A stretch of 64,000 bases of DNA from Naegleria gruberi. Taxonomy: Eukaryota. How positions within the stretch are numbered: position 1 is the stretch's first letter; every line of letters begins with the position of its first letter. Of the stretch, positions 21,756 through 53,098 are shown piece after piece. Location of the stretch: the NCBI GenBank assembly GCA_000004985.1, contig GG738871.1; one strand, written 5' to 3'. The translations under genes were made by a program, and so were the position numbers. The notes beneath the pieces were generated by a model that was not told the DNA's origin, searched no databases, and worked only from the letters and a program-made list of their open reading frames with translations.

Positions 21756-21807
21756 TTTTTTATTATTTAAATTCAATAAATATTACAATTTCCTTAATTT
21801 ACAATAC

Positions 21808-22748
21808 TTAATTCAATTTGATATTGTTACTTTCCTTTTCATAGACAGCATCTTCATCAGATCCTCTCAAAATTAAACGATCATCACTATCTGGAATGTC
21901 AACAATTAAAGAGTGGAATGTGAAACGATTTCTAATAATATTTAAAATTCCACTCTTTCTAGAAGCATCACAAGAAATCATGGCAGTCTTTTTGTTTGGA
22001 TCTTGAAGTTGGAAAATGAGTTGAACTCTTTTTGGTTTCCAGAATTGAAGCTTTCTAATAAGTGGAACATCGTGAGCATTATTAAAATCTGGATAAGTGT
22101 ATGAGTAAGCTCTGAATTTTCCAGGAGTGAGTGGAGTGAGCATATTATCTCTGACACTCTTATTGGCTAAAACCTTTTTAACAGCAGCTTTATAAACAGC
22201 TGATGGACTAATACTGAATGAAACAACTGCCAAATAACTAAGTCCACATGAAATTAAACCAGTGAAGAAACCAGTGTAAAATGAAACTGTAGCAACATTC
22301 TTAAATGTGATAGAACTCAACCAATCAGTAATTTCCCAAACTATTCAACTATTTAATATTAAAATCCAATATACATACCAATCCACAAAACACCAAATAT
22401 TGCTGTTGAAATGATGGCATATCTTACAAAGTACATTTTCCAAAATTTAACAAGAAGTGGAATGTTAATATCTGGTCTATCTTCATCCATAATACGTTCC
22501 TTATCGTTGAAAACTTCAACAGGGACAATTTCCTTTTCCAAATCCCTTTCTTCTTCATAAATAAATAATTTTTCATCCTTCTTTTGTGGAGTTTTATTTT
22601 CTTGTTTTACTTGATTATTCTTTGAATGGAATGAAGCCACAATAAAAGATCTGTTATTAATATGTACAGATGTAATTTTTGTTGTTGGTGATGAAAAGAG
22701 TGATGGCTTGGCTGTTTTATGGGCCAAGGAAATTACACGTTTGAACAT
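21808..22748 (-). CDS. Hypothetical two-TM protein with mitochondrial-presequence-like N-terminus; exons 22379-22748 and 21808-22340, 38-nt intron
   Basis: The N-terminus MFKRVISLAHKTAKPSLFSS is basic and hydroxylated. TM helices are YAIISTAIFGVLWIG and FYTGFFTGLISCGLSYLAVVSF. A GTATGT...ttgaatag intron restores the frame (WIG|VWEITDWLSSITFKNV...). Confidence 0.55.
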
Positions 22749-22856
22749 TTTTTTTGATTGAATAAAGTTCAATGATCTTAAATTATTAAATTGATAATAA
22801 TAATATTTGCATTGCAATGATATAAATTATTTAATTTCCTATTAGTTTAAACAAAA

Positions 22857-23850
22857 TTATTCAGTCTTCTTAGCTTTTTCAGCCTTCTTCTTAGCAATTG
22901 CTCTAGCATTTTGTTGTCTCAAATTAAAGAACAAAATAAAGAATGAAATAACAATGAAATCACCTGACAATGAACCAATCAATGAACCAGTACAAGTGTT
23001 TCCCTTAGGTCTTTCCCAGAAGATTTCAACATATGAGTAAGCAGTGAAAGCAGCAGCATCAAAAATGAATTGAGTTAATTGAATATCAGTCAAATACATC
23101 TTCCACCAGACATCAAAACCTAAAGTGACCTTCATGTAGTAATAGTACATAACAATGTGAACAAAAGTATTCAAAATAATTGGAATCCATTGTCCAGTAC
23201 CTCCACTGTACAATCCATAATAACAAATTGACATTGTGGTGACATGGTGATAGGTGTGAATAAATCTGAGTCTAGATCTTCTGATAACAAGGAGGAAAGT
23301 ATCAAAAAGTTCTACATATTTAGACAAGTAATACTATTATTTAAAATTTAAAAATTCAATTTAAAAATTCAATCATGTGAAAACATACCATGTAGGTCCA
23401 GAATGGAATATAACCAACGTTATACTTATGTTCAGGGTCACACAACAAACTGTAGAAACCATCCTTCAATCCAATAGAAGTAACTTCAAACAACAATCCA
23501 AAGAAACAGACAAGGGAAATAACAGTCATATTCAAATTATGTAAAAAGGCTAAAACCTTCAAAATCTTTTGTACAAAGGTTGGATTCTTATGTTCTTGTT
23601 CCATTTCCTCTCTGGACTTGGTACCAAGAATAAAACTAAGAGTATAGGAAACAACAAGATATCCGACCAAAGTCAAACCAATAGATGGTAAACTGGAGAG
23701 AGGAGCAGCATCTTGGTCCCAGTTAAATTTGCCACCAACTTCGAGGTAGGTTTCATGAATAGAATTCAATGAAGTAATATCGAGCTTGTGATAAGCATCA
23801 ACAAAAGTCTGCAATGTTGTGAGTGGTAACTCTGGATGTGTGGAAGACAT
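22857..23850 (-). CDS. Fatty-acid elongase (ELO/ELOVL family); exons 23389-23850 and 22857-23333, 55-nt intron
   Basis: Multi-TM protein with the ELO histidine box HTYHHVTTM and YYLSKYVELFDTFLLVIRRSRL (the ELO signature F.SK..EL.DT.F..LRK). It ends in a lysine-rich ER-retention-like tail, KKKAEKAKKTE. Confidence 0.85.
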
Positions 23851-31979: not shown

Positions 31980-34082
31980 TTATTTTTGTAAATTCTTAAT
32001 TTCAGCCTCAGTCAACTCTAATTTTTCAAGGAATTGTTGTTGTTGAGAATTTAAGAGTGTTTCAGTACCGAAAATTTGCAAAGCTACTGATATAAACCAT
32101 GATTGAACAGCCATTATAAACAATCTAAACTCAAAATAGAGTTGACTTCTCCAGAATTTGAATTTTTGAGACCATGTGTTCAAATCTTGGTAATTTTCAA
32201 CAGATACTCCTTTGGCAGCACATCTAGCCATAACAGAAAATCTATTCACCTTAGCGCCAAGCTCTCTATTTAAAGATCTAAGAATGTTATCGGTTCTTGA
32301 GATGAGCAACATTTCTTTTGGCATATTTCTGTAAATGTCCATAAATTCAGCCCTTCTAGACTCAAAGAGCTTACTGAATTTTTCAAAATCTTCTTCAGTA
32401 ATTTGCTGTTCAAATGCTGCACTCAAGTCTCCATTTTGATCCAGACCTTGCAACATAATCATTGAGGTATATAGTCTGTAATCTTTGATGCCAATGGATT
32501 TACAATAATCATCCATGCCCTTTTTATCGTTTAAAACTATGCTGACCCAGAATTTAGCATAGTTAATTCTGAAATGGTCATCCAAATCTTTGTATAAACC
32601 ATGGTCTAAGATGACGATTTGTGGTTCTGATGGATTATTTGGGTTTTGCTTTACCATAACATTACTTTGATGTGCATCTGCATGCATGTGTCCGTGAATA
32701 AACAGTTGCTCTGCAAACGCAGAAATGATTCTAGCTGCGACATCACCTTCATCAAATCCCATAGCTCTAATTCTCTTTATGTCATTTGAGTTGCATGCAT
32801 TATCAATGAATTCCATTGTTAAAACTCTTGAGCTAGTGTAATCATCATAGATTTTTGGTATATAGACATCTGGTCTTGAAGTACCAAATCTTTGAGCTGC
32901 CATCTTGGCATTTTCGGCTTCATGTAAGAAATCAAGCTCTGAATTAAGACTGCTCTTGATTTCATCACTAAATTGTTGATTAACTTCAAGTAATTCATCA
33001 ATGCTCTTGGAATCTTCTTGCATGTAATATAATCTTATGCTTAATTTAGTTGCAGCATCTCTAGTGTACATATCACCAGCAAAAAAGAATCTCACATAGT
33101 GATATTGAACCTTTACAGCTACAGACTGACCTTCTTTTGTTCTAGCTCTATGTACTTGAGCTATTGACCCACTGGCAATTGGTGTTGGATCAAAATATTC
33201 AAATAATTCCTCAACTGTTTTTCCAAAATCTTGATAAACAATCTTCTTTACTTCCTCAAAAGAAATTGTTGGAGCTCTATCTCTCATAACTGAAAGTGTT
33301 TCAATATATTCATCTGGAAGGAATCCTGAAAGTGAAGCAATATGTTGTCCAAGTTTAACATATATACCCTTGTTTTCCGAGCATAAACGTAGCAATCTCT
33401 TAGCTGACTTGACATGCAACTCCTTCTTTTTAGCAATAAATTCAGTTGATTTTTTGTCTGGTTTCTCTTGAAACCAATAATTTGGGTTAAAAGAACTAGT
33501 ATTCAGAAGGACTAAGTATTCAACTCCAATAATTAAAATTGTTGACATTGTCTTTACATATCTGTCAATTCCTTCAAATAATTGAATAATTGGTGTTAGT
33601 GCATCTAAAAGAAATGGATTATAGAGTTTACTGTATGGATTTTCAATGTCGGATGCATGAAACAGCCATATAGAAAATTTCATTGCAGCATAAGAAAGTG
33701 CACTAATTGTTATTGCTCCAAGTTGAAATAAGCACAAGTATTTTAATATTTTGAGAATCCTTTTAAATAGAGAGGCTGTTTCCTCCTGTTCATTATTAGT
33801 ATTTCCTTGTTGATTTGTAAATGTAGAATATTTGTTAAATTGATGATTTTCCTTTTGGTAATTTAACAAAATAGAGGATGATCCTACTTGTTTGTTAAAA
33901 TCCAATTTACTTTTTTCCACCACTTGTCCAGTAAGATGATTCCTAATATTGCTAATATGAAATGATCGTCTATTTGATAAATTTAAATTATTCCGAGTGA
34001 GTATTGGTGTAGTAGTAGCAATACTACTAGTCATAACCAGAGGCTTGCCTCTTTTCAATGACTTTAAAAGAATAGTCATCAT
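31980..34082 (-). CDS. ABC1/ADCK (aarF domain-containing) atypical kinase, mitochondrial-type
   Basis: The 700-aa ORF opens with a presequence-like N-terminus (MMTILLKSLKRGKPLV...RRSFHISNIRNH). The ABC1 signature is ...LCSENKGIYVKLGQHIASLSGFLPDEYIETLSVMRDRAPT...FEYFDPTPIASGSIAQVHRARTKEGQSVAVKVQ.... A downstream kinase-like region contains ILDHGLY. Confidence 0.8.
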   Translation of the reverse strand: MMTILLKSLKRGKPLVMTSSIATTTPILTRNNLNLSNRRSFHISNIRNHLTGQVVEKSKLDFNKQVGSSSILLNYQKENHQFNKYSTFTNQQGNTNNEQEETASLFKRILKILKYLCLFQLGAITISALSYAAMKFSIWLFHASDIENPYSKLYNPFLLDALTPIIQLFEGIDRYVKTMSTILIIGVEYLVLLNTSSFNPNYWFQEKPDKKSTEFIAKKKELHVKSAKRLLRLCSENKGIYVKLGQHIASLSGFLPDEYIETLSVMRDRAPTISFEEVKKIVYQDFGKTVEELFEYFDPTPIASGSIAQVHRARTKEGQSVAVKVQYHYVRFFFAGDMYTRDAATKLSIRLYYMQEDSKSIDELLEVNQQFSDEIKSSLNSELDFLHEAENAKMAAQRFGTSRPDVYIPKIYDDYTSSRVLTMEFIDNACNSNDIKRIRAMGFDEGDVAARIISAFAEQLFIHGHMHADAHQSNVMVKQNPNNPSEPQIVILDHGLYKDLDDHFRINYAKFWVSIVLNDKKGMDDYCKSIGIKDYRLYTSMIMLQGLDQNGDLSAAFEQQITEEDFEKFSKLFESRRAEFMDIYRNMPKEMLLISRTDNILRSLNRELGAKVNRFSVMARCAAKGVSVENYQDLNTWSQKFKFWRSQLYFEFRLFIMAVQSWFISVALQIFGTETLLNSQQQQFLEKLELTEAEIKNLQK

Positions 34083-34490
34083 CACAAGGAATAATAAAAT
34101 TGGTTATTTTTTCTTGATTGAATCATCAACTGGAACATGTTTAACTTTGCAATTGGTATCATTGAAGTTTTTGAATTGATCAATTCCACTGACAAAATAA
34201 TGCAATAAATGATGAACAATACAATTCCGAGACTTTTGATTGTCAATTAATGAATTATTGATCATTAATTGACAGAAATGAGTTCAACTTCAATATTCTT
34301 AAGGAACTTATCTCACACTTAATATGAACGTGGTATGGTAGGTACCTAAGAAATATCCCATGAAAGTATTAAGGAATTGAAAGAGATGAATGGGATGTAG
34401 GCACTAAGAAACAGCCATTGTTCCAAATACAACAAATCACAATGTGTCCGTGTTTCGTTATTAATTCACCACTTGTCTGAGAATAGTTGT

Positions 34491-37031: not shown

Positions 37032-38353
37032 TTACAACAATGAAGCAATGAAAGAAATCAAAGCAATCAAAAGTACAGAGAATGAAGAAACAGAGCTAGA
37101 ATTAATCTTACTTGATTTTGGTGAGGCCTTTGGTGAAATAGTTGGAGTGACAACATCAGCAGCTGGAGCAGGATCAACACAAGCATCATTTGGAGAGGAC
37201 AATGAAATAGCTGAAGGATTTGGAATACCAATAGCAGCAACAGCAATTCTACCACCAGCATTACCAGTAGCAGAAGTTGAAGTACCATCATCTCTAGTGG
37301 TGTGAAGAACCAAACCACGTCCAATAATATTTCTAACACCAGTCAATTCAATCAAATCAACATTGAAATCAAAAGTAGCAATACCACTATCATCAGCAGT
37401 AACGTTACCTAAATCACCAACGTGTCTTTCAGTAGATCCTGGATAACCGTGTGTCTTATTGAATGGATTGAAATGGCCACCAGTTCTAGTACCATCTGTT
37501 AAATCAAGTTCACCATAAGTGTGAATATGCAAACCATGAGTTGATTGAGCAGTCAATCCACAAATTTTACCATAAACTCTAGTCAATCCACTACCTGAAT
37601 TATATGAGAAAATAACTCTACCAGTAACATTACCAGTTGCAGCAGCAGTCTTTTGGAAAACAGCAACACCAATATTATCAGTATAAACATCATTATAAGT
37701 CATAGTATTAGCAGCATTATTTGCAATACCAATTACACAATGAGCTGCAGGATTACTGGCATTACCAGTTGGTTGAGCAATTTTACCCAAATCAGCTGCC
37801 ATATGTAAACGAATAGCTCTACCAACAACACTAATACTTCCATTAAATTGTGGAAGAGTTGAAGTAATAACACCTGAATATCCCTTTGATAAATCAATAT
37901 TACCCAAATCACCAATGTGAATATCACTTCCTGTATTATCAGATGGAAGTGCATGATTCTTACCATATGGATTATAATGTCCACCAGTTGCAGTAGCATC
38001 AGCTAATTTATCATCATTATTATTATTATTATTATTATTAATATATTTGTTACAATATTAAATATATTTGTTACAATTAATATTAAAAGTATTTAAAACA
38101 TACCAATATAACCATATTGATGAATGTGGAATCCTAATGTTTTACCTTGCAAAGCAGTTGGTACAGTTGATTGATCCAATGACCAAGCAACACTTGTAGT
38201 TCCATCACTTGATTGTGTGAAATAAACTGCTCCTTTTAATCCTTTAGCATAGGTTGTACCTCTCAAGAGACAATGAGCAATTTGACCATTAATTGATGAA
38301 ATTAATGAAGCAATGAGAACAAGCAATGTAATTAATAGTAATTTAGAATTCAT
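37032..38353 (-). CDS. Secreted/GPI-anchored protein with two tandem Cu/Zn superoxide dismutase domains; exons 38104-38353 and 37032-38002, 101-nt intron
   Basis: Signal peptide MNSKLLLITLLVLIASLISSINGQ. Domain 1 has GFHIHQYG...GGHYNP...KNHALP...DIHIGDLGN...IRLHMAADLG...GNASNPAAHCVIGI. Domain 2 has HGLHIHTYG...GGHFNP...KTHGYP...ERHVGDLGN...LVLHTTRDDG...GNAGGRIAVAAIGI. The C-terminal hydrophobic tail SVSSFSVLLIALISFIASLL is GPI-signal-like. The intron has a GTATGT donor, contains an (AAT)n run and a 17-bp direct repeat, and uses the only AG available (aaattag). Confidence 0.85.
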
Positions 38354-39396: not shown

Positions 39397-42300
39397 ATGT
39401 CTTTAAAAAAAAATATTCAGATATTGGTGGATCGTTTAGATTCAACACTCTCTGTGAATTCATCCTCCGATCATCATCAAGATCTTAGTAATTATCCTCT
39501 TCATATTGAAGATCAATCAGAGGATAACAATAATATTGAACAAGAATTAATAACAGAGAGTCCAACATCTATTTCAAGACATCAACTCATGTTTAATAGT
39601 GGTGGTGCTAATAATAATCACAATCATAATCATAATGGTATGGATCATGATGATGAATTTGATGAAGATTCATTATTATTATCCAACAATAATGGAAGTG
39701 TAAATAATTATCAAGATGACGACGTTGTGTTAAATTCCTATTTGAATGAAAGGACAATTGGTGATTTAACAAAGAAACCCTATATTCCATTAAAACAAGA
39801 TAGAAAGAAAATGACTCGATTACAAAATATTTATTACATGTTTTTACAATACATGATGTTTACTTGGAAGGAAGTTTCAAAACGTAAAGTTTCATATTTG
39901 ATTGGAACTGCGAGTTGTTTTGTTGTAGTTTGGATGATTATGGTTTCAGTTTCTGCACTTTCACAAGTTCCTTTGGTGTTTATTCGTTTGGCAGAGTTAC
40001 AAGTTGGTGAATTTGATTTTAAATTGAAAACTGGCATTAATATGGCAGGTATTTCACTAAATTATACAAGAATTAATTTACAAATTCAAAATGCTACAAG
40101 AGGTAATCCTGAAATGACTCAACAATTTTCATATCATTCACCTAGATTTACATTTAGTACAAGGGCATTTACAAATTGTGAAAGTATAACACAAGATTTA
40201 TCTATTTTTAAATATCAAGATTTTAAATGGATGTATAATTCAACAAGTAGTTCATGTGGTTTGAGAGAAAATCAAAAATCCATTCAATCATCCGATTATA
40301 ATAATGGACAATATTGTGTTCCAATTGATTGTAAAAAAGTTGCTGAAAGATTATCACTTTATTTAATTGATACTGATAAAGAACGTAGAATGCAATTCGG
40401 AAGAACTTATCCATATTCAAAATTGGAAAAGGGGAAGGCAATTATTGGTTCTGGTCTTGCTGAAACATTATCTGTTAAAAAAGGTGATACTATTCTATTG
40501 AATATTCAAACAATGAATAGCTTTACTGGACCATATCGTGATTCTCACATGATTGGTTATGTCTATCCAAAGGCAAAAGGATCATTGGAAAAATTAATAC
40601 CAAAACAAATACAAGAGCTATTGGATAGTAATGAATTTCATGAATTTGAAAGAAAGAATATAAGATCACAAGCAATTCTCAATGAAATACTTGAAGAGAA
40701 ATATTCTGATTTATTCGATGAGGATCAAGCATTGAAAAATAGAAGACTTACATTCAATGGTGGTGCCACTTACATTCCAGTAATTGTTGAAGATGTTGCC
40801 AATAATGCATATGGAAAATATCAATCAACGAATTTGGAAAATGCAATTATTATGGAATATGATTCATTACTTGCTCATGTTGCAGAGTTTTTGAATGAAG
40901 ATCTCTTTTCCAAATCAGAAAAGTCAACTCTTTCACAATTAGATTTGTATGATTATGCCAGTGAAGTTTATGTTAATTATCCACCAAATAGATTAACTGC
41001 CTATAATGAAAATGATTACAAAGTGATTAGAGAAAAGATTACAAAATTTGCTTCCACTTCAATGTATTTAATGGGTTTTAATCAACTTTCATCAAGTTTC
41101 CCAATATTGGAAATGATGGAAGTTACACAATTTTTTGCCCTCTTTGTTGGTTTAATTATTTCAATCATTTTAATTGTTTTGTGTTTACTTTCTGTTGTAT
41201 TAATTTACAGTTTGTTAATGATTAATGTTGAAAATAGAAGATATGAAATGGGTTTATTGAGAATGATTGGTTTAAAGAGAAGAAATCTTGTTGAACTCAT
41301 TCTAGTTCAAGCCATGTGGTATGGTATTCCAGCTTGGATTTTAGGGTTAATCATTGGTCAATTATCTTATTCTGTAGTTGCAATTTTGCTTAGTACTCAA
41401 TTGGAAGCAAACGTTTCATATATTGTCTCTGGTGAAGCTTTTGCATTGGCAACATTCCTTGGCTTGACTGTTCCTGTTTTATCTGCCATTTTACCAATCA
41501 AGACAGCCCTCGGTCAAAATTTACACGATTCACTCGATACTCAAAGATCAGGAACAGCAGCTGTTAAATATTCAATTGAAAGAGCTGAGGGAGAATCCAT
41601 CTCATGGACATCTATTGTTATGGGTGTTGTTGGTATAATTTTTGGTTTTTCAGTTTATTATGTCATGCCACTCAGTATGCTTACATTTAATATTACAATT
41701 ATGATGTACATGTTTATGGCTGTTATTTTGGCCATGTTATTGGGTTTAGTTTTATTGAGTTTGAATTTTGAAAATATTATTGAATTTATTGTAGTTTTAT
41801 TTACCATTAGAATATTTGAAAAAGTATCAGTTATTGATCTAGTTGAAAAGAATCTAATTGCTCATCGTGAGAGAAATAGAAAGACAACTCTAATGTTTTC
41901 ATTGAGTTTGGGTTTTATTATATTTTCATCTGTTTTATTCAATACACAAATTACAGCATTCAAATATAATGTAATGAGAGGTGCAGGAACAGAACTCATT
42001 GTTGGTACCAGTAGATTGAATGCATTTGCTCAGAATCCAAATATCATTGGAACTATACAGGAATTTGCTGATAATAATCCTAATTGGTTTGTTGGATCCA
42101 CTTATTGGACATTTGATTTAACAAGAGTTACATCACCAATTGATAATACTAAAATAAGAACTGATGGTGGTCTTGTTAATAATGATATTTATATTCGTGC
42201 CATTGCTCCAAACTTTTTTAATATTACAAATTCAAAGTTTTTAAGAATTGATGAAAGAATTCAACCTGAAAATAAGACAGTATTTACAAAATATAAGAGT

Positions 42301-43167
42301 AATTTAGATGAATATTTATATACTGTTGAAGGAAGTAGTCAATTAATATTAGGAACTTATTTTAAATCAAATTTAGGAGTTAATATCAAAGATACAGCTG
42401 TTCTTCAAATTACTGAATCAACTTCAAGAATGCCAAATTATAGATATGAATTATTCCAAGTTGGTGCTTTTTTGAGTGCATGTCCAGTAGCTCTCTATTC
42501 TGAATTTCCAAGATTTGGAACACAAAATTTACTTGTCAGTGTTCCAACCTATTTACGTCTCCTTGGAAAGAATTCAAATTATACAGCAACAAGTCTTCCA
42601 ATTGATGCTGTCTTTTTAAAATTAACTGAAAATGCAAAGAATAATAAGGCTGAATTTAGAAAGTTGAGATCTACTCTCCAACGTGTCATTAGTCCATTCC
42701 CAGGACTATTCATTAGAGATATTAGTCAAGAATTAGATCCAGTTGAAATTGCAGTTTCAGTCATGAACTTTTTCTTCCTCTTCACAGCAGCAGTTGCCCT
42801 CGTCATTTGTTTCTTTAGTTTAATTTCTAGCATGTATAGTAATATTAATTCACAAGCAAAGGAAATTGGAATTTTAAGAGCTATTGGAATGAAGAAATTT
42901 GCAATTATTAGAGTTTACATTTATGAGGCATTTGTTTTGATATCAGCTGCTGCAGTTTCTGGTGTGGCCATTGGTTTGGCTATTGGACAAACTATGGCTA
43001 TGCAAAATACCTTAATTACAGAATTACCAATTGATTTTGTATTTCCTTATCAAATTGTTGCACTTGTACTTGGAAGTGCAATTATTTTTAGTTTCTTTTC
43101 TTCCTTCTTCCCTATTTATTCACTTGTTAATATGCCAATTGTTAGCGTTTTGAAAAAACTTAATTAA
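39397..43167 (+). CDS. Large (1256 aa) polytopic membrane protein with two FtsX/MacB-type ABC-permease-like 4-TM modules and large extracytoplasmic domains
   Basis: ATG at 39397. The N-terminal 110 aa are N/H/D-rich. TM at 170-190. First FtsX-like module: FFALFVGLIISIILIVLCLLSVVLIYSLLMINVENRRYEMGLLRMIGLKRRNLVELILVQAMWYGIPAWILGLIIG...ALATFLGLTVPVLSAILPIKTAL. Second module near the C-terminus: FFFLFTAAVALVICFFSLISSMYSNINSQAKEIGILRAIGMKKFAIIRVYIYEAFVLISAAAVSGVAIGLAIG.... No ATPase domain in the ORF. Confidence 0.75.
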   Translation: MSLKKNIQILVDRLDSTLSVNSSSDHHQDLSNYPLHIEDQSEDNNNIEQELITESPTSISRHQLMFNSGGANNNHNHNHNGMDHDDEFDEDSLLLSNNNGSVNNYQDDDVVLNSYLNERTIGDLTKKPYIPLKQDRKKMTRLQNIYYMFLQYMMFTWKEVSKRKVSYLIGTASCFVVVWMIMVSVSALSQVPLVFIRLAELQVGEFDFKLKTGINMAGISLNYTRINLQIQNATRGNPEMTQQFSYHSPRFTFSTRAFTNCESITQDLSIFKYQDFKWMYNSTSSSCGLRENQKSIQSSDYNNGQYCVPIDCKKVAERLSLYLIDTDKERRMQFGRTYPYSKLEKGKAIIGSGLAETLSVKKGDTILLNIQTMNSFTGPYRDSHMIGYVYPKAKGSLEKLIPKQIQELLDSNEFHEFERKNIRSQAILNEILEEKYSDLFDEDQALKNRRLTFNGGATYIPVIVEDVANNAYGKYQSTNLENAIIMEYDSLLAHVAEFLNEDLFSKSEKSTLSQLDLYDYASEVYVNYPPNRLTAYNENDYKVIREKITKFASTSMYLMGFNQLSSSFPILEMMEVTQFFALFVGLIISIILIVLCLLSVVLIYSLLMINVENRRYEMGLLRMIGLKRRNLVELILVQAMWYGIPAWILGLIIGQLSYSVVAILLSTQLEANVSYIVSGEAFALATFLGLTVPVLSAILPIKTALGQNLHDSLDTQRSGTAAVKYSIERAEGESISWTSIVMGVVGIIFGFSVYYVMPLSMLTFNITIMMYMFMAVILAMLLGLVLLSLNFENIIEFIVVLFTIRIFEKVSVIDLVEKNLIAHRERNRKTTLMFSLSLGFIIFSSVLFNTQITAFKYNVMRGAGTELIVGTSRLNAFAQNPNIIGTIQEFADNNPNWFVGSTYWTFDLTRVTSPIDNTKIRTDGGLVNNDIYIRAIAPNFFNITNSKFLRIDERIQPENKTVFTKYKSNLDEYLYTVEGSSQLILGTYFKSNLGVNIKDTAVLQITESTSRMPNYRYELFQVGAFLSACPVALYSEFPRFGTQNLLVSVPTYLRLLGKNSNYTATSLPIDAVFLKLTENAKNNKAEFRKLRSTLQRVISPFPGLFIRDISQELDPVEIAVSVMNFFFLFTAAVALVICFFSLISSMYSNINSQAKEIGILRAIGMKKFAIIRVYIYEAFVLISAAAVSGVAIGLAIGQTMAMQNTLITELPIDFVFPYQIVALVLGSAIIFSFFSSFFPIYSLVNMPIVSVLKKLN

Positions 43168-43498: not shown

Positions 43499-44557
43499 AT
43501 GAGTCAACAACAACAAGAAGAATATAAAAGTGTTATTATTACTGGTTGTAACAGTGGAATTGGTTTGGAAGCAGTGAGACAATTGTTGAGAGAAGAATGG
43601 GATTCGAATAGAAAAACTAAACATATTGTAATGGCATGTAGAGGTGTTGAGTTATCAAATAGTGAAATGGAAACGTTTATTCAAGATTATTTGAAGGAAC
43701 ATCCTGAAAGAAACGAAACTGAACTAAAGAGTCAAATTACAGCTTTGAAACTTGATTTGGCATCGTTCAAATCAATTCATCAATTTGTTTCAGAAATCAA
43801 ATCCTTAATTGACAGTTCCAAAATTCCACCTCTTCATTCACTTGTTTGTAATGCAGGTTTACAATATGCAAACAAATTAGTTTTGACAGAAGAAGGTTAT
43901 GAGGCCACATTTGGAGTCAACCATCTTGGACATTTCTTATTAATTAATTTGTTGCTTCCATTATTTACAAAGTCAACCAATTCAAAGAATAGAATTGTAA
44001 TTGTATCAAGTGATACTCACGATAGAACAAAATTTACAGGAATGCCAGTTCCAGAATTTGAAACCGCTGAAAAGTTAGCAATCATTTCCACTGATTCTGA
44101 TACAGAGCAAGATAATAGCAAATTGGGTAGAGTTAGATATACTACATCCAAGTTCTGTAATATTTTATGTGCCTATGAATTGGTTACTAGATTGCAATCT
44201 CATCCAATTTATAGAGATCAATTTACAGTCAATTCTTTTAATCCAGGTTTTGTTCCTACTACAGGTTTATCAAGAGATTATAACAAGTTTTTGAGAGCTA
44301 TTGCAAGAAATGTTTTACCTTTATTGAGATTTGTTCATAGTGGTGTTAGAACATTGGAAGTTTCTGGTTATGATTTGAAACAATTAATTATTGATAGAAA
44401 TCTTGAAAACGTAACTGGAAAATATTTTGATGGAAGTAATATGATTGATTCATCACCTGATACATATAATACTACAATTCAAAATGAATTGTGGGAAGAT
44501 AGTATCAAATTAATCATTGCAAAATCTGATATCATCTCAAAAACAAACTTCTTGTAA
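43499..44557 (+). CDS. Short-chain dehydrogenase/reductase (protochlorophyllide-reductase/retinol-dehydrogenase-like SDR)
   Basis: Rossmann motif VIITGCNSGIGLEAVRQLL, with ...HIVMACRGVE, NAG (LVCNAGLQ), a catalytic-region S...Y..K-like segment, and RTLEVSG. Intronless 352-aa ORF from ATG at 43499. Confidence 0.85.
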   Translation: MSQQQQEEYKSVIITGCNSGIGLEAVRQLLREEWDSNRKTKHIVMACRGVELSNSEMETFIQDYLKEHPERNETELKSQITALKLDLASFKSIHQFVSEIKSLIDSSKIPPLHSLVCNAGLQYANKLVLTEEGYEATFGVNHLGHFLLINLLLPLFTKSTNSKNRIVIVSSDTHDRTKFTGMPVPEFETAEKLAIISTDSDTEQDNSKLGRVRYTTSKFCNILCAYELVTRLQSHPIYRDQFTVNSFNPGFVPTTGLSRDYNKFLRAIARNVLPLLRFVHSGVRTLEVSGYDLKQLIIDRNLENVTGKYFDGSNMIDSSPDTYNTTIQNELWEDSIKLIIAKSDIISKTNFL

Positions 44558-47726: not shown

Positions 47727-49989
47727 ATGAATACAATCTTCTTCAACGTTGAAAATAAGCCTATCGCAGCTTTTGCTGTTGTTTACTTGAGTGAACAAAA
47801 AGTAAACTTTAAAGTTTCAAAGAATCCAGGTATCACTTTGGCTGAATCTGCCAGTGGGTAGGTGTCTTTCTTTATTATTATTTTTATAATAATAATAATA
47901 ATTAATTTTATTATTGTTGTTGATGATGATTAAAAAGTGTGAGAGGAAACTTTAATGTTGCTCAAGTTCTTTCAAAGAATACTAAACTCGCAGCTCAAAA
48001 TACTGATGACGTTTTTGTTGCTTTTGAAACTGCTAGTGAAATTGCTAAATCAGGACTTATTGAAGAATTGGATGTTTGCATGCAAAGATTAGATGCTTTA
48101 CTTACAACCAAGACATATTTCTCTGGTGAAGATTTGTCTGTTTGTGATTTGTGTATTTATGAAAGTCTTAAACATCACAAATTAGTTATGGGATATTTGA
48201 AGAGATTTGAAAAATCAATTCCAAATGTTGTTCGTTATTTCTTCACTATTCATAGAAATCCAAAGATTCAACAAGTTGTTAAAATTTTGGATAATGCTGC
48301 TAAAGCTATGACTAGTACTGATGAAGTTTTAAATCCAACTCCTGCTGCAAGGATAACAAGTCAAATTGTGACAAGACTGAAAAGAAGGAATCTCAACCTG
48401 AAATTAATTTGGAACTTCCACATGCTCAAATGGGTAAAGTTGTTACCAGATTCCCACCTGAAGCATCTGGTTTCCTTCATATTGGTCACGCTAAGGCTGC
48501 TTTGATGAATAATTATTTTGCTAAGAAATATAATGGTAAACTTATTATGAGATTTGATGATACTAATCCAGATAAGGAAAGAGAAGAATATGAACATGCT
48601 ATTCTCTCAGATTTGGAAAGTTTAGGTGTTAAACCTGATATTCATGTTCGTTCATCTGATCACTTTGATAAGTGTATTGAATTTGCTGAACAATTGATTA
48701 GAGAAGGAAAGGCTTATATGGATGATACTGCAGTTGAAGAATTGAGAAGAATGAAAATGGAAGGTATTGAATCTGCTAACAGAAATAATTCTGTTGATAA
48801 GAATATGGAAATGTGGAAGGAATTACTTGCTGGTACTGAAAATGGAAAGAAGTCAGTCCTCAGAGCTAAGATTGATATGAAATCATTGAATAAGACTATG
48901 CGTGATCCTGTTCTTTTCAGAAGTAAGGATAAACCTCATCCAAAACTTGGTGATAAGTATAAGGCATATCCAACTTATGACTTTGTTTGTCCAGTTGTTG
49001 ACAGTTTGGATGGTGTTACTCATGCTTTGAGAACTTCTGAATATAACGATAGAAATGAACAATACTATTGGATTATTGATGCTTTGGGTATTAGAAAGCC
49101 ATTCTTGTACGATTTCAGTAGATTGAACTTTGCTAATACTGTCATGTCTAAGCGTAAATTGCAAAAGATTGTTGATATTGGAGTTGTTGAAGGATGGAAT
49201 GATCCTCGTTTCCCAACTGTTCAAGGTCTCTTACGTAGAGGTTTGACTGTTGAAGCTTTGTACAATTTCATTTTGGAACAAGGTGCTTCTCGTAACGTTG
49301 TTACTATTCAATGGGAAAAGTTGTGGGCTGAAAATAAGAAGGTTATTGATCCAAAGGTTCCAAGATATTGTGCTATTGAAAAGACTGATATTGTTAAATT
49401 CCATTTATCAAATGGTCCACAAACTATGGAATCAAAGGAAAATGCAAAGCACAAGAAGAATGATTCTCTTGGTAAGAAGACTACCTATTATACCAATACC
49501 ATTTATTTGGATAGAGAAGATGCTGCTGCCATTGAACAAAATGAAGAAGTTACTTTGATGGATTGGGGTAATGCTATTATTCAAGAAATTGTTAAGGATG
49601 ACAGTGGTAAGGTTGTTGAATTGAAGGGTGTTTTGCACTTGGAAGGTGACTTTAAGAAGACTAAGAAGAAGTTGACTTGGTTGCCAGTTAACCCAGAAGT
49701 TAATACTGAAAATGTTCAAATTGTTCATTTCGGTCATTTGATTAACAAGATTTCTTTATCTTCTGATGATAATATTGAAGATGTTGTTAATCGTAATTCC
49801 AAGACTGTTACTACTTCAATTGGTGATCATAATTTAAAGTCATTGAAGAAGGGTGATATTATTCAATTGGAAAGAAGAGGTTATTTCATTTGTGATGTTC
49901 CATTTGATGGAAAGTCATTGACTTTATTCAATATTCCAGATAGTGTTTCAACAAAGACAACTGCTGCTGCTGCTTCTACTTCTAAATAA
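47727..49989 (+). CDS. gluS: Glutamyl-tRNA synthetase (cytoplasmic-type, GST-like N-terminal domain + class I catalytic core); exons 47727-47857 and 47938-49989; apparent 1-nt frame shift ~48340-48400
   Basis: Exon 1 is MNTIFFNVENKPIAAFAVVYLSEQKVNFKVSKNPGITLAESASG, followed by an 80-nt GTAGGT...aaaaag intron. GST-C-like region: TKTYFSGEDLSVCDLCIYESLKHHKLV.... Then, in the +1 frame: KTEKKESQPEINLELPHAQMGKVVTRFPPEASGFLHIGHAKAALMNNYFAKKYNGKLIMRFDDTNP.... The HIGH motif and the rest of the GluRS core run to stop TAA at 49987. Confidence 0.85.
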
Positions 49990-49993
49990 AAAA

Positions 49994-52900
49994 ATGATAA
50001 ACTCTAAACCAAAGAGTTTACTTCAAATTGCTAAAGATCGGAAAAACAAATTATCATCACAATCTTCTCAATCATCTCAATCATCACAAACATCAAATGA
50101 TAATAATAACACTAATTCATCATCATCATTAACAATATTGAATCATTCTAGTAATACTAGTAGTAATAACAATGTTAATACTACTAATAATATTGGAAAT
50201 AATAGTACTACTACTTCTACTAATAAGACGACATCAACATGTAAATTAATAATTAAACCCAAATCTTCCATTAGACTCTATTCCGAAACTGTTGATTTAT
50301 CATTTGAATATTCAAGTGATAAAGAAAGTGACAATGACGATATTCAAATCATTCATACTCCAGTTAATAAGAAACTTTCAACTCCTTCATCATCACTAAC
50401 ATCACTATCATCAACTACTTCCACTCCATCATCACTTTTAAAATCACTATCATTACTACCAAATAATAATAATAACATGACCACTTTAAAAACCACAACT
50501 AAGAATGAAATATCAAATAATAATAATAATTTATCATCATCATTATCAACATCTACAAATTTAATAGTAGAAACATATAGTTCATTATTAGAAGATTTAA
50601 CTCAACAAGATGATGATATAAATAGTAATTCATTAAATATAAATAGTAATTCATTAAATATTAAAGAACCATTAATTAAAAAAAGAAAACAATTTAAAAT
50701 TCCAAGTTTTTACATGACAGATGAAGAAATTAAACATGACATTTCTTTATCTAAAACAATAATTCCAATTTTAAATATTCAAGATAAATTTTCAATTCAT
50801 TTTACAAAACCATTTTGGACAATTTATAAAGATGGAAATGAAATTCTATTATTAGATTTTAGAAAACCAATATTTACAAATTTATTATTTTTAAAATTAA
50901 TTTATTATTTTAATTTTAATAAAACTAAAATAATTGAAAAATCTAAATTTATACATTCAATTAAAGATTTAATTATTTTATTAAAACCATATAGTACTTT
51001 ATTAGTAAATAATGAAAATTTAGAACAATTAAAAAAGGAAATTGAAATTATTTTAAATGAAGATTTAAAAAATAATTTTATAGAAAATGAAAATGTAAAA
51101 TATGTAAATAATTTTCAATATTTAATTTTAGAATATTTAAATACAAATATTCATAAATTTAAAAATACTAAAAAATCTAGAAATTTAAGAAAATTAAGAA
51201 TGTGTGAAGAATTACTAAAAAAGGAATTTAATTCTAAATTTATAAAAAGTTTTGAAAAATCTGAAAATTCATTTTATTCAGATTTTAATTTTAATTTATA
51301 TGATTTCATGTCAATTTATTTTAATAAGGAAAAATTTGAATATTTAAATCTAAATGAAATTGATTTTAATAATTCCATAAAAGAATTTCATAAAATTTTA
51401 AATGAACTCATCATTTCAACTATATACTATAATAAGGGTCAATATATAGGTGATATTATAGCAACAAATTTATTAAAAAAATCCATAAAAAATAATACTA
51501 CTATATATGGCAGTGAATACCAAAATAGTAATAATGATGAAAAACAACACCAATATTATATTAATAGTGATAATAGTGATAATGATGATAGTGATGATAG
51601 TGATAGTGATGAAGAAGAAGAAGAAGAAGAAAATGAAATAATTCTAGATAGTCATATTCCACATGGATTTGGAAGTTGGAAATTTATAGAAGAAAATAAT
51701 GAAATTTTCTATAAAGGGGAATGGAAAAAAGGGAAAAAGGAAGGATTTGGTATTTTACAAACATTTGAAATATTATATGAAGGAGAATGGAAAGAGAATG
51801 AAATGAATGGATTTGGAATATTTAAAATATTAAATGGATATCATAAAGGTAGTATTTATTATGGTAATTTTAAAAAAGGAAAGAGAAATGGATTTGGAAT
51901 TCAATTTTATAAATATGAAGGAAATAATGAAATATTAAAAGATGATTTGAATGAATTTAATGAATTTTATAGAGGTGAATGGTTAAATGATGTTAGAAAT
52001 GGAAAAGGTGAATTTAAATCAAAATATGAATGGAAATTGGGAGAATGGAAAAAACATGAATTTAAAAATGGAATTTTACTAATTAAGGAATGTTTAGAAA
52101 TTCAAGATTCAATCATTACAAATTGTATTCATTCACAAATAGAAATTGAAAAATATTCAAAAAAAACAAAAAAATCTCAAATTCCTTCAACTATACTTCC
52201 ATTTATATTTTCATTAGATAATTTAGATAAATTAACAGTTGTAGATGCAATTATTGCATATGGTAATCAATCTAAATCACCTAAACGTACAATTTATAAT
52301 GGTTATTGTTTTAGATCAAAATTGGAAAGTCGTTGGGCTAAATTCTTTGAATGTTGTGGAATTGAATATCAATACGAATGTAAAACTTTTATTTTAAAAG
52401 ATGGAACATCATATACTCCTGATTTTTATTTACCTTTTCTCAATTTTTGGATTGAAATTAAACCAAATTATCCAAGTGAAGAAGAAAGAGTTAAAGCTCA
52501 ATTATTAAGTTTTGTTTTACAAAAACAGACTAGTAATAATAATCAACATAATGAATTGACAGAATTTGAAAAGAAATATGAAAGATATTTACAATCAAAT
52601 CCAAGAATTTTCATTTTATATGGAGATGTTAGTGCTCCATTTATTAAGAAATTTCAATCAGGAGGAATGGCAATTGAATTTTTCAAAACAGATCAACAAG
52701 AAAATTCTATTCAGAATAGAACAAATAAGAGAATTACACCTCCAAGGAGTGGCAATACTACTTCTACTACCAGTAATCCAATTAGAGAATCTGTTCTATT
52801 TAATACTACTGAACCATTGGGCTGGTGTCAATGTCATCATTGTGGTAAAATTTCACTTGAATATAGATGTAAACCCAAGTGTTGTACTAACAAGACAGCA

Positions 52901-53098
52901 GATAATAGTACTGCTTCGACAAGTTTAGTTGATTCAGTGGTGACATCAGAGCTTGGTCCAACTTTGAGTAATGCTTATTATGCAGTTACCAAATTATCGT
53001 TTGATGAATGGAGAGTGAGAAATGAAAATACATTCTTTAACAGTATAACACAAGAGATTGAAATTACAACAGAAAAGAAACGAAGTAAATTCTTTTAA
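49994..53098 (+). CDS. Large protein with S/N/T-rich N-terminal half, MORN repeats and a C-terminal PD-(D/E)xK-nuclease-like/zinc-binding region
   Basis: ATG at 49994, 4 nt after the GluRS stop. MORN repeats: YKGEWKKGKKEGFGIL, YEGEWKENEMNGFGIF, YYGNFKKGKRNGFGIQFY, YRGEWLNDVRNGKGEF, LGEWKKHEFKNGILL. C-terminal block: NGYCFRSKLESRWAKFFECCGIEYQYECKTF...GTSYTPDFYLPFLNFWIEIKPN (E...D...E-x-K order), then CQCHHCGKISLEYRCKPKCC. Confidence 0.6.
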   Translation: MINSKPKSLLQIAKDRKNKLSSQSSQSSQSSQTSNDNNNTNSSSSLTILNHSSNTSSNNNVNTTNNIGNNSTTTSTNKTTSTCKLIIKPKSSIRLYSETVDLSFEYSSDKESDNDDIQIIHTPVNKKLSTPSSSLTSLSSTTSTPSSLLKSLSLLPNNNNNMTTLKTTTKNEISNNNNNLSSSLSTSTNLIVETYSSLLEDLTQQDDDINSNSLNINSNSLNIKEPLIKKRKQFKIPSFYMTDEEIKHDISLSKTIIPILNIQDKFSIHFTKPFWTIYKDGNEILLLDFRKPIFTNLLFLKLIYYFNFNKTKIIEKSKFIHSIKDLIILLKPYSTLLVNNENLEQLKKEIEIILNEDLKNNFIENENVKYVNNFQYLILEYLNTNIHKFKNTKKSRNLRKLRMCEELLKKEFNSKFIKSFEKSENSFYSDFNFNLYDFMSIYFNKEKFEYLNLNEIDFNNSIKEFHKILNELIISTIYYNKGQYIGDIIATNLLKKSIKNNTTIYGSEYQNSNNDEKQHQYYINSDNSDNDDSDDSDSDEEEEEEENEIILDSHIPHGFGSWKFIEENNEIFYKGEWKKGKKEGFGILQTFEILYEGEWKENEMNGFGIFKILNGYHKGSIYYGNFKKGKRNGFGIQFYKYEGNNEILKDDLNEFNEFYRGEWLNDVRNGKGEFKSKYEWKLGEWKKHEFKNGILLIKECLEIQDSIITNCIHSQIEIEKYSKKTKKSQIPSTILPFIFSLDNLDKLTVVDAIIAYGNQSKSPKRTIYNGYCFRSKLESRWAKFFECCGIEYQYECKTFILKDGTSYTPDFYLPFLNFWIEIKPNYPSEEERVKAQLLSFVLQKQTSNNNQHNELTEFEKKYERYLQSNPRIFILYGDVSAPFIKKFQSGGMAIEFFKTDQQENSIQNRTNKRITPPRSGNTTSTTSNPIRESVLFNTTEPLGWCQCHHCGKISLEYRCKPKCCTNKTADNSTASTSLVDSVVTSELGPTLSNAYYAVTKLSFDEWRVRNENTFFNSITQEIEITTEKKRSKFF

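What the first reader, a model, noticed from the sequence alone, without database searches (positions are those of the whole stretch)
39397..43167. Eukaryotic 1256-aa protein built from two bacterial FtsX/MacB-type permease modules, without an ATPase
Two 4-TM modules match the FtsX/ABC3 permease pattern (amphipathic helix, then a conserved xGxLRAIG(M/L)K(K/R)xxI motif, then 3 further TMs). Each follows a large predicted extracytoplasmic domain, as in MacB/LolCE/YknZ-type mechanotransmission permeases. In bacteria these partner with a separate or fused ABC ATPase; none is encoded in this ORF or its immediate neighbours. The N-terminus is Asn/His/Asp-rich low complexity. This is a rare architecture for a eukaryote and could mark an extracellular-substrate extrusion or lipoprotein-handling system of bacterial ancestry.
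Basis: partly seen in the sequence, partly recalled or inferred. Interest (0 to 1): 0.55.

Follow-up and report, generated by a model that had tools for sequence, protein, structure and literature searches.

The report
Eukaryotic YbbP-like type VII ABC permease
This Naegleria gruberi gene encodes a 10-helix membrane protein with the same fold as bacterial MacB/FtsX/YbbP "mechanotransmission" permeases; it belongs to a widespread, catalogued but functionally unstudied protist family, so it is real and only mildly surprising.

Summary
The 1256-aa ORF (39397-43167, +) is real and is a true FtsX/MacB-superfamily (ABC3, type VII) permease: Pfam FtsX scores 98.8 bits in two copies. A confident AlphaFold model (pLDDT 87.9) matches only type VII permeases. 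E. coli YbbP is the best full-length match.

- The topology is 10 TM (4 + 2 linker + 4), as in YbbP, not 2x4.
- The "xGxLRAIG" motif is the cytoplasmic coupling helix between TM2/3 and TM8/9.
- The architecture is not rare. 784 cluster representatives score at E<=1e-30. Named members span Discoba, Metamonada, Amoebozoa, a chytrid, a stramenopile, a ciliate and a glaucophyte. TCDB already lists a Eukaryotic ABC3 family (3.A.1.207).

The window is N. gruberi chromosome with ordinary eukaryotic neighbours. No ABC ATPase lies in the window, beside nine relatives, or fused to 13 long relatives. This fits the bacterial rule that fused permeases use a separate ATPase. Strong conservation of both coupling helices suggests an unlinked ATPase partner; I could not test this.

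Side finding: a surface-anchored tandem Cu/Zn SOD gene sits head-to-head with this gene in four heterolobosean genomes, including reshuffled Willaertia.

Verdict: new member of a known kind; moderate-low interest.

The parts
39397..43167 (+). Complete uninterrupted ORF, 1256 aa plus stop: fused double-FtsX (type VII / ABC3) permease of N. gruberi
   Evidence: Wherever they align it is identical to the annotated N. gruberi 'predicted protein' P0001 (1017 aa). That model lacks the N-terminus and two internal segments.
39397..39813 (+). Cytoplasmic N-terminal extension (residues 1-139), Asn/His/Asp-rich low complexity, with a short motif YLNERTIGDLTKKPY shared with other heteroloboseans
   Evidence: Sequence. 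Motif conserved in P0002-P0005. Not conserved in the wider family.
39817..40005 (+). Pre-TM1 cytoplasmic helix (residues 141-162) and TM1 plus stalk helix (164-203)
   Evidence: AF2 model helices H2-23 and H25-64; hydropathy.
40018..41097 (+). Extracytoplasmic domain 1 (residues 208-567). It has a conserved LNYT sequon (N222), four semi-conserved Cys (261, 287, 307, 312) and a lineage-specific helical insert at about 380-445
   Evidence: Periplasmic-domain fold hits for MacB, YknZ, LolC and LolE; the tables do not show which ECD was matched.
41101..41514 (+). FtsX domain 1: stalk+TM2, coupling helix 1, TM3, TM4 (residues 569-706)
   Evidence: Pfam FtsX best stretch 590-708; AF2.
41239..41268 (+). 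Coupling helix 1 (residues 615-624, RYEMGLLRMI). R622 is 98% and G625 100% conserved across the family
   Evidence: The position between TM2 and TM3 matches the YbbA-binding coupling helix of YbbP (PMC12646458).
41605..41808 (+). Linker hairpin TM5 (737-763) and TM6 (766-804), highly conserved (G750 98%, P758 100%, G783 99%, N790 95%)
   Evidence: Equivalent to the two linking TMs of YbbP and BceB.
41824..41886 (+). Pre-TM7 cytoplasmic helix carrying the family hallmark KNLIAHRERNRKT (H823 and N827 invariant in 121 sequences)
   Evidence: Hallmark patterns found no relative in prokaryotic species genomes.
41866..41985 (+). TM7 plus stalk helix (residues 824-863)
   Evidence: AF2 H685-724.
41995..42720 (+). 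Extracytoplasmic domain 2 (residues 867-1108), mixed alpha/beta
   Evidence: The profile match to Spr0695 (5xu1_M) runs from this domain into the TMs. Fold hits.
42721..43128 (+). FtsX domain 2: stalk+TM8, coupling helix 2, TM9, TM10 (residues 1109-1244)
   Evidence: (MacB 5lil E=3.3e-6 over residues 1069-1240).
42856..42885 (+). Coupling helix 2 (residues 1154-1163, AKEIGILRAI). E1156 is 95% and G1164 96% conserved. It aligns residue for residue with the MacB and YtrF motif TERTKEIG..AIGA
37032..38353 (-). Divergently transcribed neighbour, possibly linked: a two-exon gene (intron 38003-38103, GT..AG) for a 406-aa protein with signal peptide, two Cu/Zn-SOD domains, a Pro/Ser-rich stalk and a hydrophobic C-terminal tail
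   Evidence: The head-to-head pairing with the FtsX gene is conserved in N. lovaniensis, Willaertia magna and a metagenomic heterolobosean.

Best explanation
The gene encodes the membrane subunit of a eukaryotic type VII (MacB/FtsX-fold, 'ABC3') ABC system built like E. coli YbbP. Two duplicated 4-TM modules are joined by a 2-TM hairpin, giving 10 TM. N- and C-termini and both coupling helices face the cytosol. Two large domains with conserved N-glycosylation sequons and cysteines face the cell exterior or an organelle lumen. 

Shown: the fold, the topology, family membership, the eukaryotic chromosomal setting, the wide protist distribution, and the absence of a cis or fused ATPase. 

Inferred: two copies of an ABC ATPase encoded elsewhere in the genome dock on the coupling helices (residues 615-624 and 1154-1163). 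ATP binding and hydrolysis would then move the stalk helices and ECDs (mechanotransmission). That motion would either extract a hydrophobic or lipid-like substrate from the outer leaflet or act on an extracellular partner protein, as in YbbAP-TesA, LolCDE-LolA and FtsEX-EnvC. The substrate is unknown.
For: - Sequence and profile: Pfam FtsX x2 at 98.8 bits. A profile of 68 family members hits YtrF (2.7e-15), MacB (2.7e-14) and LolF/E/C in the PDB.
- Topology: K/R-rich loops 2-3, 8-9 and post-TM6; K/R-free loops 3-4, 5-6 and 9-10; conserved sequon N222 and four semi-conserved Cys in ECD1.
- Coupling elements: the most conserved 20-residue blocks in 121 family members are those at 820-839 (0.73, pre-TM7 hallmark and start of TM7), 600-619 (0.72, TM2 into coupling helix 1) and 1140-1159 (0.69, TM8 into coupling helix 2). 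ECD blocks mostly score 0.1-0.45. The coupling motif matches the bacterial E..(K/R)EIG..(R/K)A.G. In YbbAP these two helices bind the two YbbA ATPases (PMC12646458).
- Trans ATPase precedent: in bacteria, fused double permeases always have the NBD as a separate protein (PMC5985334). None of 13 long eukaryotic members carries a fused NBD.
Against: - No ATPase partner was identified. None is in the 64 kb window or in 142 kb around nine relatives, and none of the tools could search the rest of the N. gruberi genome.
- Conservation of the coupling helices could reflect a structural role in the fold rather than NBD docking.
- The best-conserved elements (TM5-TM6 hairpin, invariant H823 and N827) found no relative in prokaryotic genomes with the two hallmark patterns. 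They may serve a eukaryote-specific partner that is not an ABC ATPase.
- All NCBIfam hits (ADOP, LolCE, MacB, YbbP) are far below curated cutoffs, so no bacterial function can be transferred.
- No experimental study of any eukaryotic member turned up.
Confidence: 0.6

Rival explanations
1. ATPase-independent 'orphan' permease. The eukaryotic family has lost ABC energisation. It would act as a passive scaffold or receptor, as a lipid-handling membrane protein, or be driven by a different cytosolic partner that binds the eukaryote-specific conserved elements (TM5-TM6 hairpin, KNLxAHRxRNRKT helix).
For: - No NBD in cis, nearby or fused in any member examined.
- The most conserved and invariant residues (P700, P758, H823, N827) lie in the linker and pre-TM7 region. 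Patterns built from that region found no prokaryotic relative.
- The closest NCBIfam model by hit frequency is ADOP (40 of 41 members). From memory, not tested here: ADOP is named a 'duplicated orphan permease' because no adjacent ATPase is found.
Against: - Both coupling helices keep the bacterial NBD-docking motif under strong purifying selection across eukaryotic supergroups.
- Eukaryotic genes are not organised in operons, so lack of linkage says nothing.
- No type VII member that works without an NBD came up in the papers read here (PMC5985334, PMC12646458).
Confidence: 0.25
2. Regulator or platform for an extracellular enzyme rather than a transporter. In Naegleria and Willaertia the permease would work with the divergently transcribed, surface-anchored tandem Cu/Zn SOD, holding or allosterically controlling it as FtsEX does EnvC or YbbAP does TesA.
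For: - The head-to-head SOD/FtsX pair is conserved in N. gruberi, N. lovaniensis, Willaertia magna and a metagenomic relative.
- In Willaertia these are the only two genes in 19.5 kb that are shared with the 64 kb window.
- The SOD has a signal peptide, two ligand-complete SOD domains, a P/S-rich stalk and a hydrophobic tail. That places it on the same side of the membrane as the ECDs.
- Type VII systems typically pair with an extracytoplasmic partner (PMC12646458).
Against: - The pairing is absent for the Naegleria paralogue P0010 and for more distant members P0006, P0007, P0008, P0009 and P0012, so it cannot explain the function of the family as a whole.
- Conserved adjacency of a divergent pair can persist through a shared promoter without any physical interaction.
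- There are no interaction or co-expression data.
Confidence: 0.1
3. Bacterial contamination of the assembly, or a very recent horizontal transfer of a bacterial YbbP/ADOP-type permease.
For: At superfamily level, every relative with a solved structure is a prokaryotic type VII permease.
Against: - The gene sits between eukaryotic genes: AP-4 epsilon, WD40, cyclophilin, ADCK kinase, an intron-containing SOD, HMG/BRCT, and Glu/Gln-tRNA synthetase.
- Its GC content matches the rest of the window.
- It is syntenic with N. lovaniensis.
- All 23 named relatives among the 30 clusters looked up are eukaryotic or IMG metagenome auto-names; none is a named prokaryote.
- Two scans of prokaryotic species genomes with family-specific patterns found no relative.
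Confidence: 0.01

Closest known systems
E. coli YbbP (YbbAP-TesA complex; PDB 9GE6/9GE7/9GE8; NCBIfam NF041854)
   Same: - Single-chain fusion of two FtsX/MacB-type 4-TM modules joined by two linker TMs, 10 TM in all.
- Two large extracytoplasmic domains, between TM1/2 and TM7/8.
- Coupling helices between TM2/3 and TM8/9.
- NBD not fused.
   Different: - Only 11-13% sequence identity.
- The NF041854 score is 18.4 bits against a 999-bit cutoff.
- The protein is about 450 residues longer, with bigger ECDs, a helical insert and a low-complexity N-terminus.
- The TM5-TM6 hairpin and pre-TM7 helix are the most conserved parts and carry a eukaryote-specific hallmark.
- No adjacent ybbA-like ATPase or tesA-like esterase.
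TCDB Eukaryotic ABC3 (E-ABC3) family, TC 3.A.1.207, and database entries such as Tetrahymena thermophila 'efflux ABC transporter, permease domain protein' (XP_001012585) and UniRef 'ABC3 transporter permease C-terminal domain-containing protein' (N. lovaniensis, Planoprotostelium)
   Same: Eukaryotic FtsX/ABC3-type permeases of about 1000-1100 aa. The Tetrahymena, N. lovaniensis and Planoprotostelium entries are full-length hits of the family profile.
   Different: I could not retrieve TCDB's own member list, so identity with 3.A.1.207 is inferred from its name and definition (PMC7997004). No function, structure or ATPase partner is reported for that family in the searchable literature.
MacB / LolC-LolE / FtsX / YtrF / HrtB (canonical 4-TM type VII permeases)
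   Same: - Same TM fold, stalk helices and periplasmic-domain fold.
- Same coupling-helix motif E..KEIG..RA.G.
   Different: - These are homo- or heterodimers of separate 4-TM chains, and MacB carries a fused NBD.
- They are encoded in operons with their ATPase and with partners such as MacA/TolC, LolA or EnvC.
- All are bacterial.
- Curated cutoffs are not met.
BceB-type permeases and the ADOP family (TIGR03434)
   Same: - BceB: 10-TM fused topology with two linker TMs.
- ADOP: duplicated FtsX permease; it is the NCBIfam model that most family members hit (40 of 41, best 2e-20).
   Different: - BceB lacks the first ECD and works with the BceS kinase.
- The ADOP score is 44 bits against a 622-bit cutoff, and the matches cover only the C-terminal FtsX region.

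Membership tests
FtsX / ABC3 / type VII ABC permease superfamily (Pfam PF02687) | FtsX domain HMM above the gathering threshold | tested here: met
   98.8 bits against a 25.5-bit cutoff, E=2.8e-28, two stretches.
FtsX / ABC3 / type VII ABC permease superfamily (Pfam PF02687) | 4-TM module with a large extracytoplasmic domain between TM1 and TM2, raised on stalk helices | tested here: met
FtsX / ABC3 / type VII ABC permease superfamily (Pfam PF02687) | Cytoplasmic coupling helix between TM2 and TM3 carrying the E..(K/R)EIG..(R/K)A.G motif | tested here: met
   Helices 615-624 and 1154-1163. The motif aligns to MacB and YtrF. R622 is 98%, G625 100%, E1156 95% and G1164 96% conserved.
FtsX / ABC3 / type VII ABC permease superfamily (Pfam PF02687) | Extracytoplasmic domain of MacB type (Porter/Sabre; Pfam MacB_PCD PF12704) | tested here: inconclusive
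FtsX / ABC3 / type VII ABC permease superfamily (Pfam PF02687) | Works with a cognate ABC ATPase (NBD dimer) | not testable with these tools
   No NBD in the window, near nine relatives, or fused in 13 long members. The rest of the N. gruberi genome could not be searched.
YbbP-type fused permease (NCBIfam NF041854) | Single chain, 10 TM (4+2+4), two ECDs | tested here: met
   AF2 topology; best full-length structural match is YbbP; description of YbbP.
YbbP-type fused permease (NCBIfam NF041854) | Equivalog HMM above the curated cutoff | tested here: not met
   18.4 bits against 999. Only 8 of 41 family members hit the model at E<=1e-3.
YbbP-type fused permease (NCBIfam NF041854) | Genomic association with the YbbA ATPase and the TesA esterase | tested here: not met
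   Neither is in the window.
ADOP duplicated permease (TIGR03434) | Subfamily HMM above the curated cutoff | tested here: not met
   44 bits against 622.3; the match covers only the C-terminal FtsX region.
MacB (NF007826) and LolCE (TIGR02212) | Equivalog HMM above the cutoff; for MacB, also an N-terminal fused NBD | tested here: not met
   MacB 22.6 against 966; LolCE 39 against 362. There is no NBD in the ORF.
TCDB 3.A.1.207 Eukaryotic ABC3 (E-ABC3) | Eukaryotic protein homologous to ABC3-type porters | not testable with these tools
This protein fits the definition: it is eukaryotic and ABC3/FtsX-type.

The most novel reading that the evidence does not exclude
Type VII 'mechanotransmission' ABC machines are treated in the literature as a feature of the bacterial cell envelope. 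On this reading they also exist as an ancient family, possibly dating to the last eukaryotic common ancestor, with a conserved eukaryote-specific TM5-TM6 and pre-TM7 module. In heteroloboseans this YbbP-like machine would be co-regulated from a bidirectional promoter with a surface-anchored tandem Cu/Zn superoxide dismutase and would physically partner with it. That would make it a eukaryotic counterpart of YbbAP-TesA or FtsEX-EnvC, coupling cytosolic ATP hydrolysis to an extracellular enzyme.
Probability: 0.1. Interest if true: 0.7.

Novelty: new member of a known kind. Interest (0 to 1): 0.33.

Why it matters
Reviews and the consensus ABC classification present type VII ABC systems (MacB, LolCDE, FtsEX, BceAB, YbbAP) as bacterial. 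The classification's table of prokaryotic transporters lists type VII, and its text places the mammalian ABC subfamilies in types IV and V only (PMC8386196; PMC12646458).

This gene shows that a YbbP-like version is conserved in many free-living and parasitic protists, including a chytrid fungus, a ciliate and a glaucophyte. No function, location or energy source is known for any member. If an ATPase partner and a substrate were found, that would extend mechanotransmission to eukaryotic membranes. It would also give an experimentally tractable entry point, since Tetrahymena (family member P0151) and Naegleria are culturable.

As it stands, this is a correct but unsurprising annotation of a catalogued, uncharacterised family.

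Tried and rejected
1. The first AF2 run, on a 7-sequence alignment, gave an unusable model (pLDDT 46.5). It was replaced by a run on 68 sequences.
Scans with A1 and with the linker alignment A5 found pattern matches but no prokaryotic relative. The Asgard homologues reported for E-ABC3 could therefore be neither confirmed nor placed.
3. The search for homologous proteins with the full ORF scored only six proteins above threshold among its 8000 scored candidates, probably because N-terminal low-complexity words crowded the candidate list (my inference). With the linker alignment it returned only short unnamed metagenomic fragments, so it gave no taxonomy.
4. The afdb50 fold library was unavailable.
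5. A search for the ATPase partner in the rest of the N. gruberi genome was considered and dropped. The third homologous-protein search was left unused for this reason.
6. The Dictyostelium ABC inventory (Anjard and Loomis 2002) is not held in the library.
7. Literature searches for any functional study of a eukaryotic FtsX, DUF214 or ABC3 protein found nothing relevant.
8. The 'ABC1' hit at 31980-34085 is an ADCK-type atypical kinase, not an ABC ATPase.
9. The SDR next to the gene looked recurrent because adh_short genes also lie near relatives in L003 and L006. The Willaertia SDR has no detectable similarity to the window at E<=1e-5, so this was rejected as a linked gene.

Full report
**Observation.** The window holds an uninterrupted ORF at 39397..43167 (+) of 1256 aa. 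Its ATG lies two codons after an in-frame stop.
- Pfam FtsX (PF02687) matches at E=2.8e-28, 98.8 bits against a 25.5-bit gathering cutoff, in two stretches.
The two halves still recognise each other by BLASTP (E=3.5e-6, 27% over 86 aa).
- The first ~139 residues are Asn/His/Asp-rich low complexity.

**Organism and gene model.** The closest database protein is the N. gruberi 'predicted protein' P0001. Wherever they align it is identical to the window ORF; it only lacks the N-terminus and two internal segments. The window is therefore N. gruberi itself.

The uninterrupted ORF is the better gene model, for three reasons:
- The first segment missing from P0001 holds residues conserved in relatives: the WMYN motif (W278, Y280), shared by the other full-length sequences in the alignment, and C287, present in 61% of 121 family members.
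- The second missing segment is retained in N. lovaniensis.
- The N-terminal motif YLNERTIGDLTKKPY is shared with N. lovaniensis, Willaertia and metagenomic relatives.

The neighbours are ordinary eukaryotic genes: AP-4 epsilon adaptin, WD40 proteins, cyclophilin, an ADCK/ABC1 atypical kinase, Cu/Zn SOD, an SDR, an HMG-box/BRCT protein, a Glu/Gln-tRNA synthetase and a MORN protein. GC content is uniform across the window, and the locus is syntenic with N. lovaniensis. Contamination is excluded.

**Anatomy.** A first AlphaFold run on 7 sequences failed (pLDDT 46.5). With 68 family members the model reached pLDDT 87.9 and pTM 0.81. In ORF numbering the elements are:

| Element | Residues |
|---|---|
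| Cytoplasmic helix | 141-162 |
| TM1 + stalk | 164-203 |
| ECD1 | 208-567 |
| Stalk + TM2 | 569-613 |
| Coupling helix 1 | 615-624 |
| TM3 | 628-669 |
| TM4 | 679-706 |
| Disordered cytoplasmic loop | about 714-736 |
| TM5 | 737-763 |
| TM6 | 766-804 |
| Cytoplasmic helix | 810-822 |
| TM7 + stalk | 824-863 |
| ECD2 | 867-1108 |
| Stalk + TM8 | 1109-1152 |
| Coupling helix 2 | 1154-1163 |
| TM9 | 1167-1208 |
| TM10 | 1218-1244 |

- The protein therefore has 10 TM (4+2+4), not 2x4.
- Charge distribution supports an N-in topology. Loops 2-3, 8-9 and post-TM6 are K/R-rich, while loops 3-4, 5-6 and 9-10 have no K or R.
- A conserved N-glycosylation sequon (N222, 85%) and four semi-conserved cysteines in ECD1 support ECDs that face the exterior or a lumen.

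**Fold comparison.**
- Foldseek against the PDB ranks E. coli YbbP first (9ge7_A, E=1.7e-17, aligned over the whole chain, TM-score 0.57 on the target). LolE, BceB, MacB, Spr0695, YtrF and HrtB follow, along with the isolated periplasmic domains of LolE and LolC.
- YbbP is described as two MacB-like units fused through two linking TMs, with two periplasmic domains, coupling helices between TM2/3 and TM8/9, and a separately encoded ATPase, YbbA (PMC5985334; PMC12646458).
- By sequence, no bacterial family model comes near its curated cutoff: ADOP 44/622, LolCE 39/362, MacB 22.6/966, YbbP 18.4/999. Across 41 members the pattern is the same.

**Distribution.**
- An exhaustive profile search of 1.84 billion representatives found 14,010 hits at E<=1e-3 and 784 at E<=1e-30. 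The top 150 are almost all full-length proteins of about 1000-1100 aa.
- Named members come from N. lovaniensis (orthologue and a paralogue), Willaertia, Ploeotia, Euglena, Rhabdomonas, Diplonema, Trimastix, Mastigella, Rhizamoeba, Planoprotostelium, the chytrid Fimicolochytrium, the stramenopile Cantina, Tetrahymena ('efflux ABC transporter, permease domain protein') and the glaucophyte Gloeochaete.
- No named prokaryote appeared among the 30 clusters looked up; 23 of them carried a name.
- Two pattern-based scans of 185,579 prokaryotic species genomes, one using the family hallmark KNL[IV]AHRxRN, found no relative.
- TCDB already lists a 'Eukaryotic ABC3 (E-ABC3) family', TC 3.A.1.207 (PMC7997004).
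- The architecture is therefore not rare in eukaryotes. It is a widespread, probably ancient protist family, catalogued but uncharacterised. I infer the age from the distribution; I did not build a tree.

**The missing ATPase.**
The same is true of nine loci around relatives, about 206 kb in all with the window.
- No ABC_tran gene was called next to any relative.
- None of 13 long family members carries a fused NBD.
[quoted passage not shown] Eukaryotic genes are also not organised in operons.
- Across 121 members, the three most conserved 20-residue blocks start at residues 820 (0.73, pre-TM7 hallmark and start of TM7), 600 (0.72, TM2 into coupling helix 1) and 1140 (0.69, TM8 into coupling helix 2). 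ECD blocks mostly score 0.1-0.45.
- The coupling-helix motif aligns residue for residue with those of MacB and YtrF.
- I therefore infer that an unlinked ABC ATPase docks there. Dictyostelium and Tetrahymena possess stand-alone single-NBD 'ABCH' genes, which are possible counterparts. None of the available tools could search the rest of the Naegleria genome, so this step remains inference.

**Family-specific features.** The TM5-TM6 hairpin and the pre-TM7 helix are more conserved than either FtsX core: P700 and P758 are 100%, G750 98%, G783 99%, N790 95%, and H823 and N827 are invariant. Patterns built from this region found no prokaryotic relative. This module could mark a eukaryote-specific partner or substrate site, and it is the main reason I keep an ATPase-independent rival at about 0.25.

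**Unexpected side finding.**
- Immediately upstream, on the opposite strand, lies a two-exon gene (38353-38104 and 38002-37032; GT..AG intron). It encodes a 406-aa protein with a signal peptide, two Cu/Zn-SOD domains that keep the SOD metal-ligand sequence motifs (my reading of the sequence), a Pro/Ser-rich stalk and a hydrophobic C-terminal tail.
- The same head-to-head SOD/FtsX pair occurs in N. lovaniensis, in a metagenomic relative and in Willaertia magna. In Willaertia these are the only two genes in 19.5 kb that are shared with the whole 64 kb window.
- The pairing is absent for the Naegleria paralogue and for more distant members.
- Type VII systems usually work with an extracytoplasmic partner, so a functional link is conceivable. 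A shared promoter with no physical interaction is at least as likely.

**Verdict.**
The homology and the lack of a cis ATPase hold, but the rarity claim does not.
- The protein is a new member of a known kind: a YbbP-like, 10-TM type VII/ABC3 permease of the eukaryotic ABC3 family.
- Most likely (about 0.6) it is driven by an unlinked ABC ATPase and uses mechanotransmission on a lipid-like substrate or an extracellular partner.
- Interest is moderate-low. The family is catalogued and the gene is already in databases. The field's bacterial-only view of type VII systems, the complete lack of functional data in eukaryotes, and the conserved SOD pairing leave some room for discovery.

Noticed in passing
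window 37032-38353 (-), intron 38003-38103; L005 5586-6860; L006 6134-7462; L002 536-1933: A surface-anchored tandem Cu/Zn SOD gene (signal peptide, two SOD domains, P/S-rich stalk, hydrophobic tail) is divergently paired with the FtsX gene in four heterolobosean genomes. In Willaertia the two are the only genes in the locus shared with the window.
   Followed up: partly
window 39397-43167 compared with P0001: The public N. gruberi gene model (1017 aa) omits the N-terminus and splices out two in-frame segments. One of them contains family-conserved residues (W278, Y280, C287), so the uninterrupted 1256-aa ORF looks like the correct model.
   Followed up: yes
window 41605-41886 (residues 737-830): The linker hairpin TM5-TM6 and the pre-TM7 helix (KNLxAHRxRNRKT; H823 and N827 invariant in 121 sequences) are the most conserved part of the eukaryotic family. 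Patterns built from the hallmark found no relative in prokaryotic species genomes.
   Followed up: partly
window 31980-34085 (-): This ORF hits Pfam 'ABC1', an ADCK/UbiB-type atypical kinase. The name is a coincidence; it is not an ABC ATPase and not a candidate partner.
   Followed up: yes
window 20545-23850 (-): Six consecutive ORFs of 150-214 aa lie on the minus strand, separated by short gaps. They may be exons of one gene or a tandem array.
   Followed up: no
window 49943-53098 (+), GC dip at 50001-52000: A 1051-aa ORF with MORN repeats and a weak, sub-threshold Phage_endo_I hit spans the lowest-GC stretch of the window (GC 0.204).
   Followed up: no
P0130 (family member, 1277 aa), residues 36-92: There is a weak EF-hand pair hit (E=7e-4, below the Pfam cutoff) in the N-terminal cytoplasmic extension of one family member. 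It may hint at lineage-specific regulation.
   Followed up: no
window 43499-44557 (+); L006 2856-3734; L003 2346-2738: Short-chain dehydrogenase genes lie near the FtsX gene in three loci. The Willaertia one shows no detectable similarity to the window at E<=1e-5, so this is probably coincidence.
   Followed up: yes
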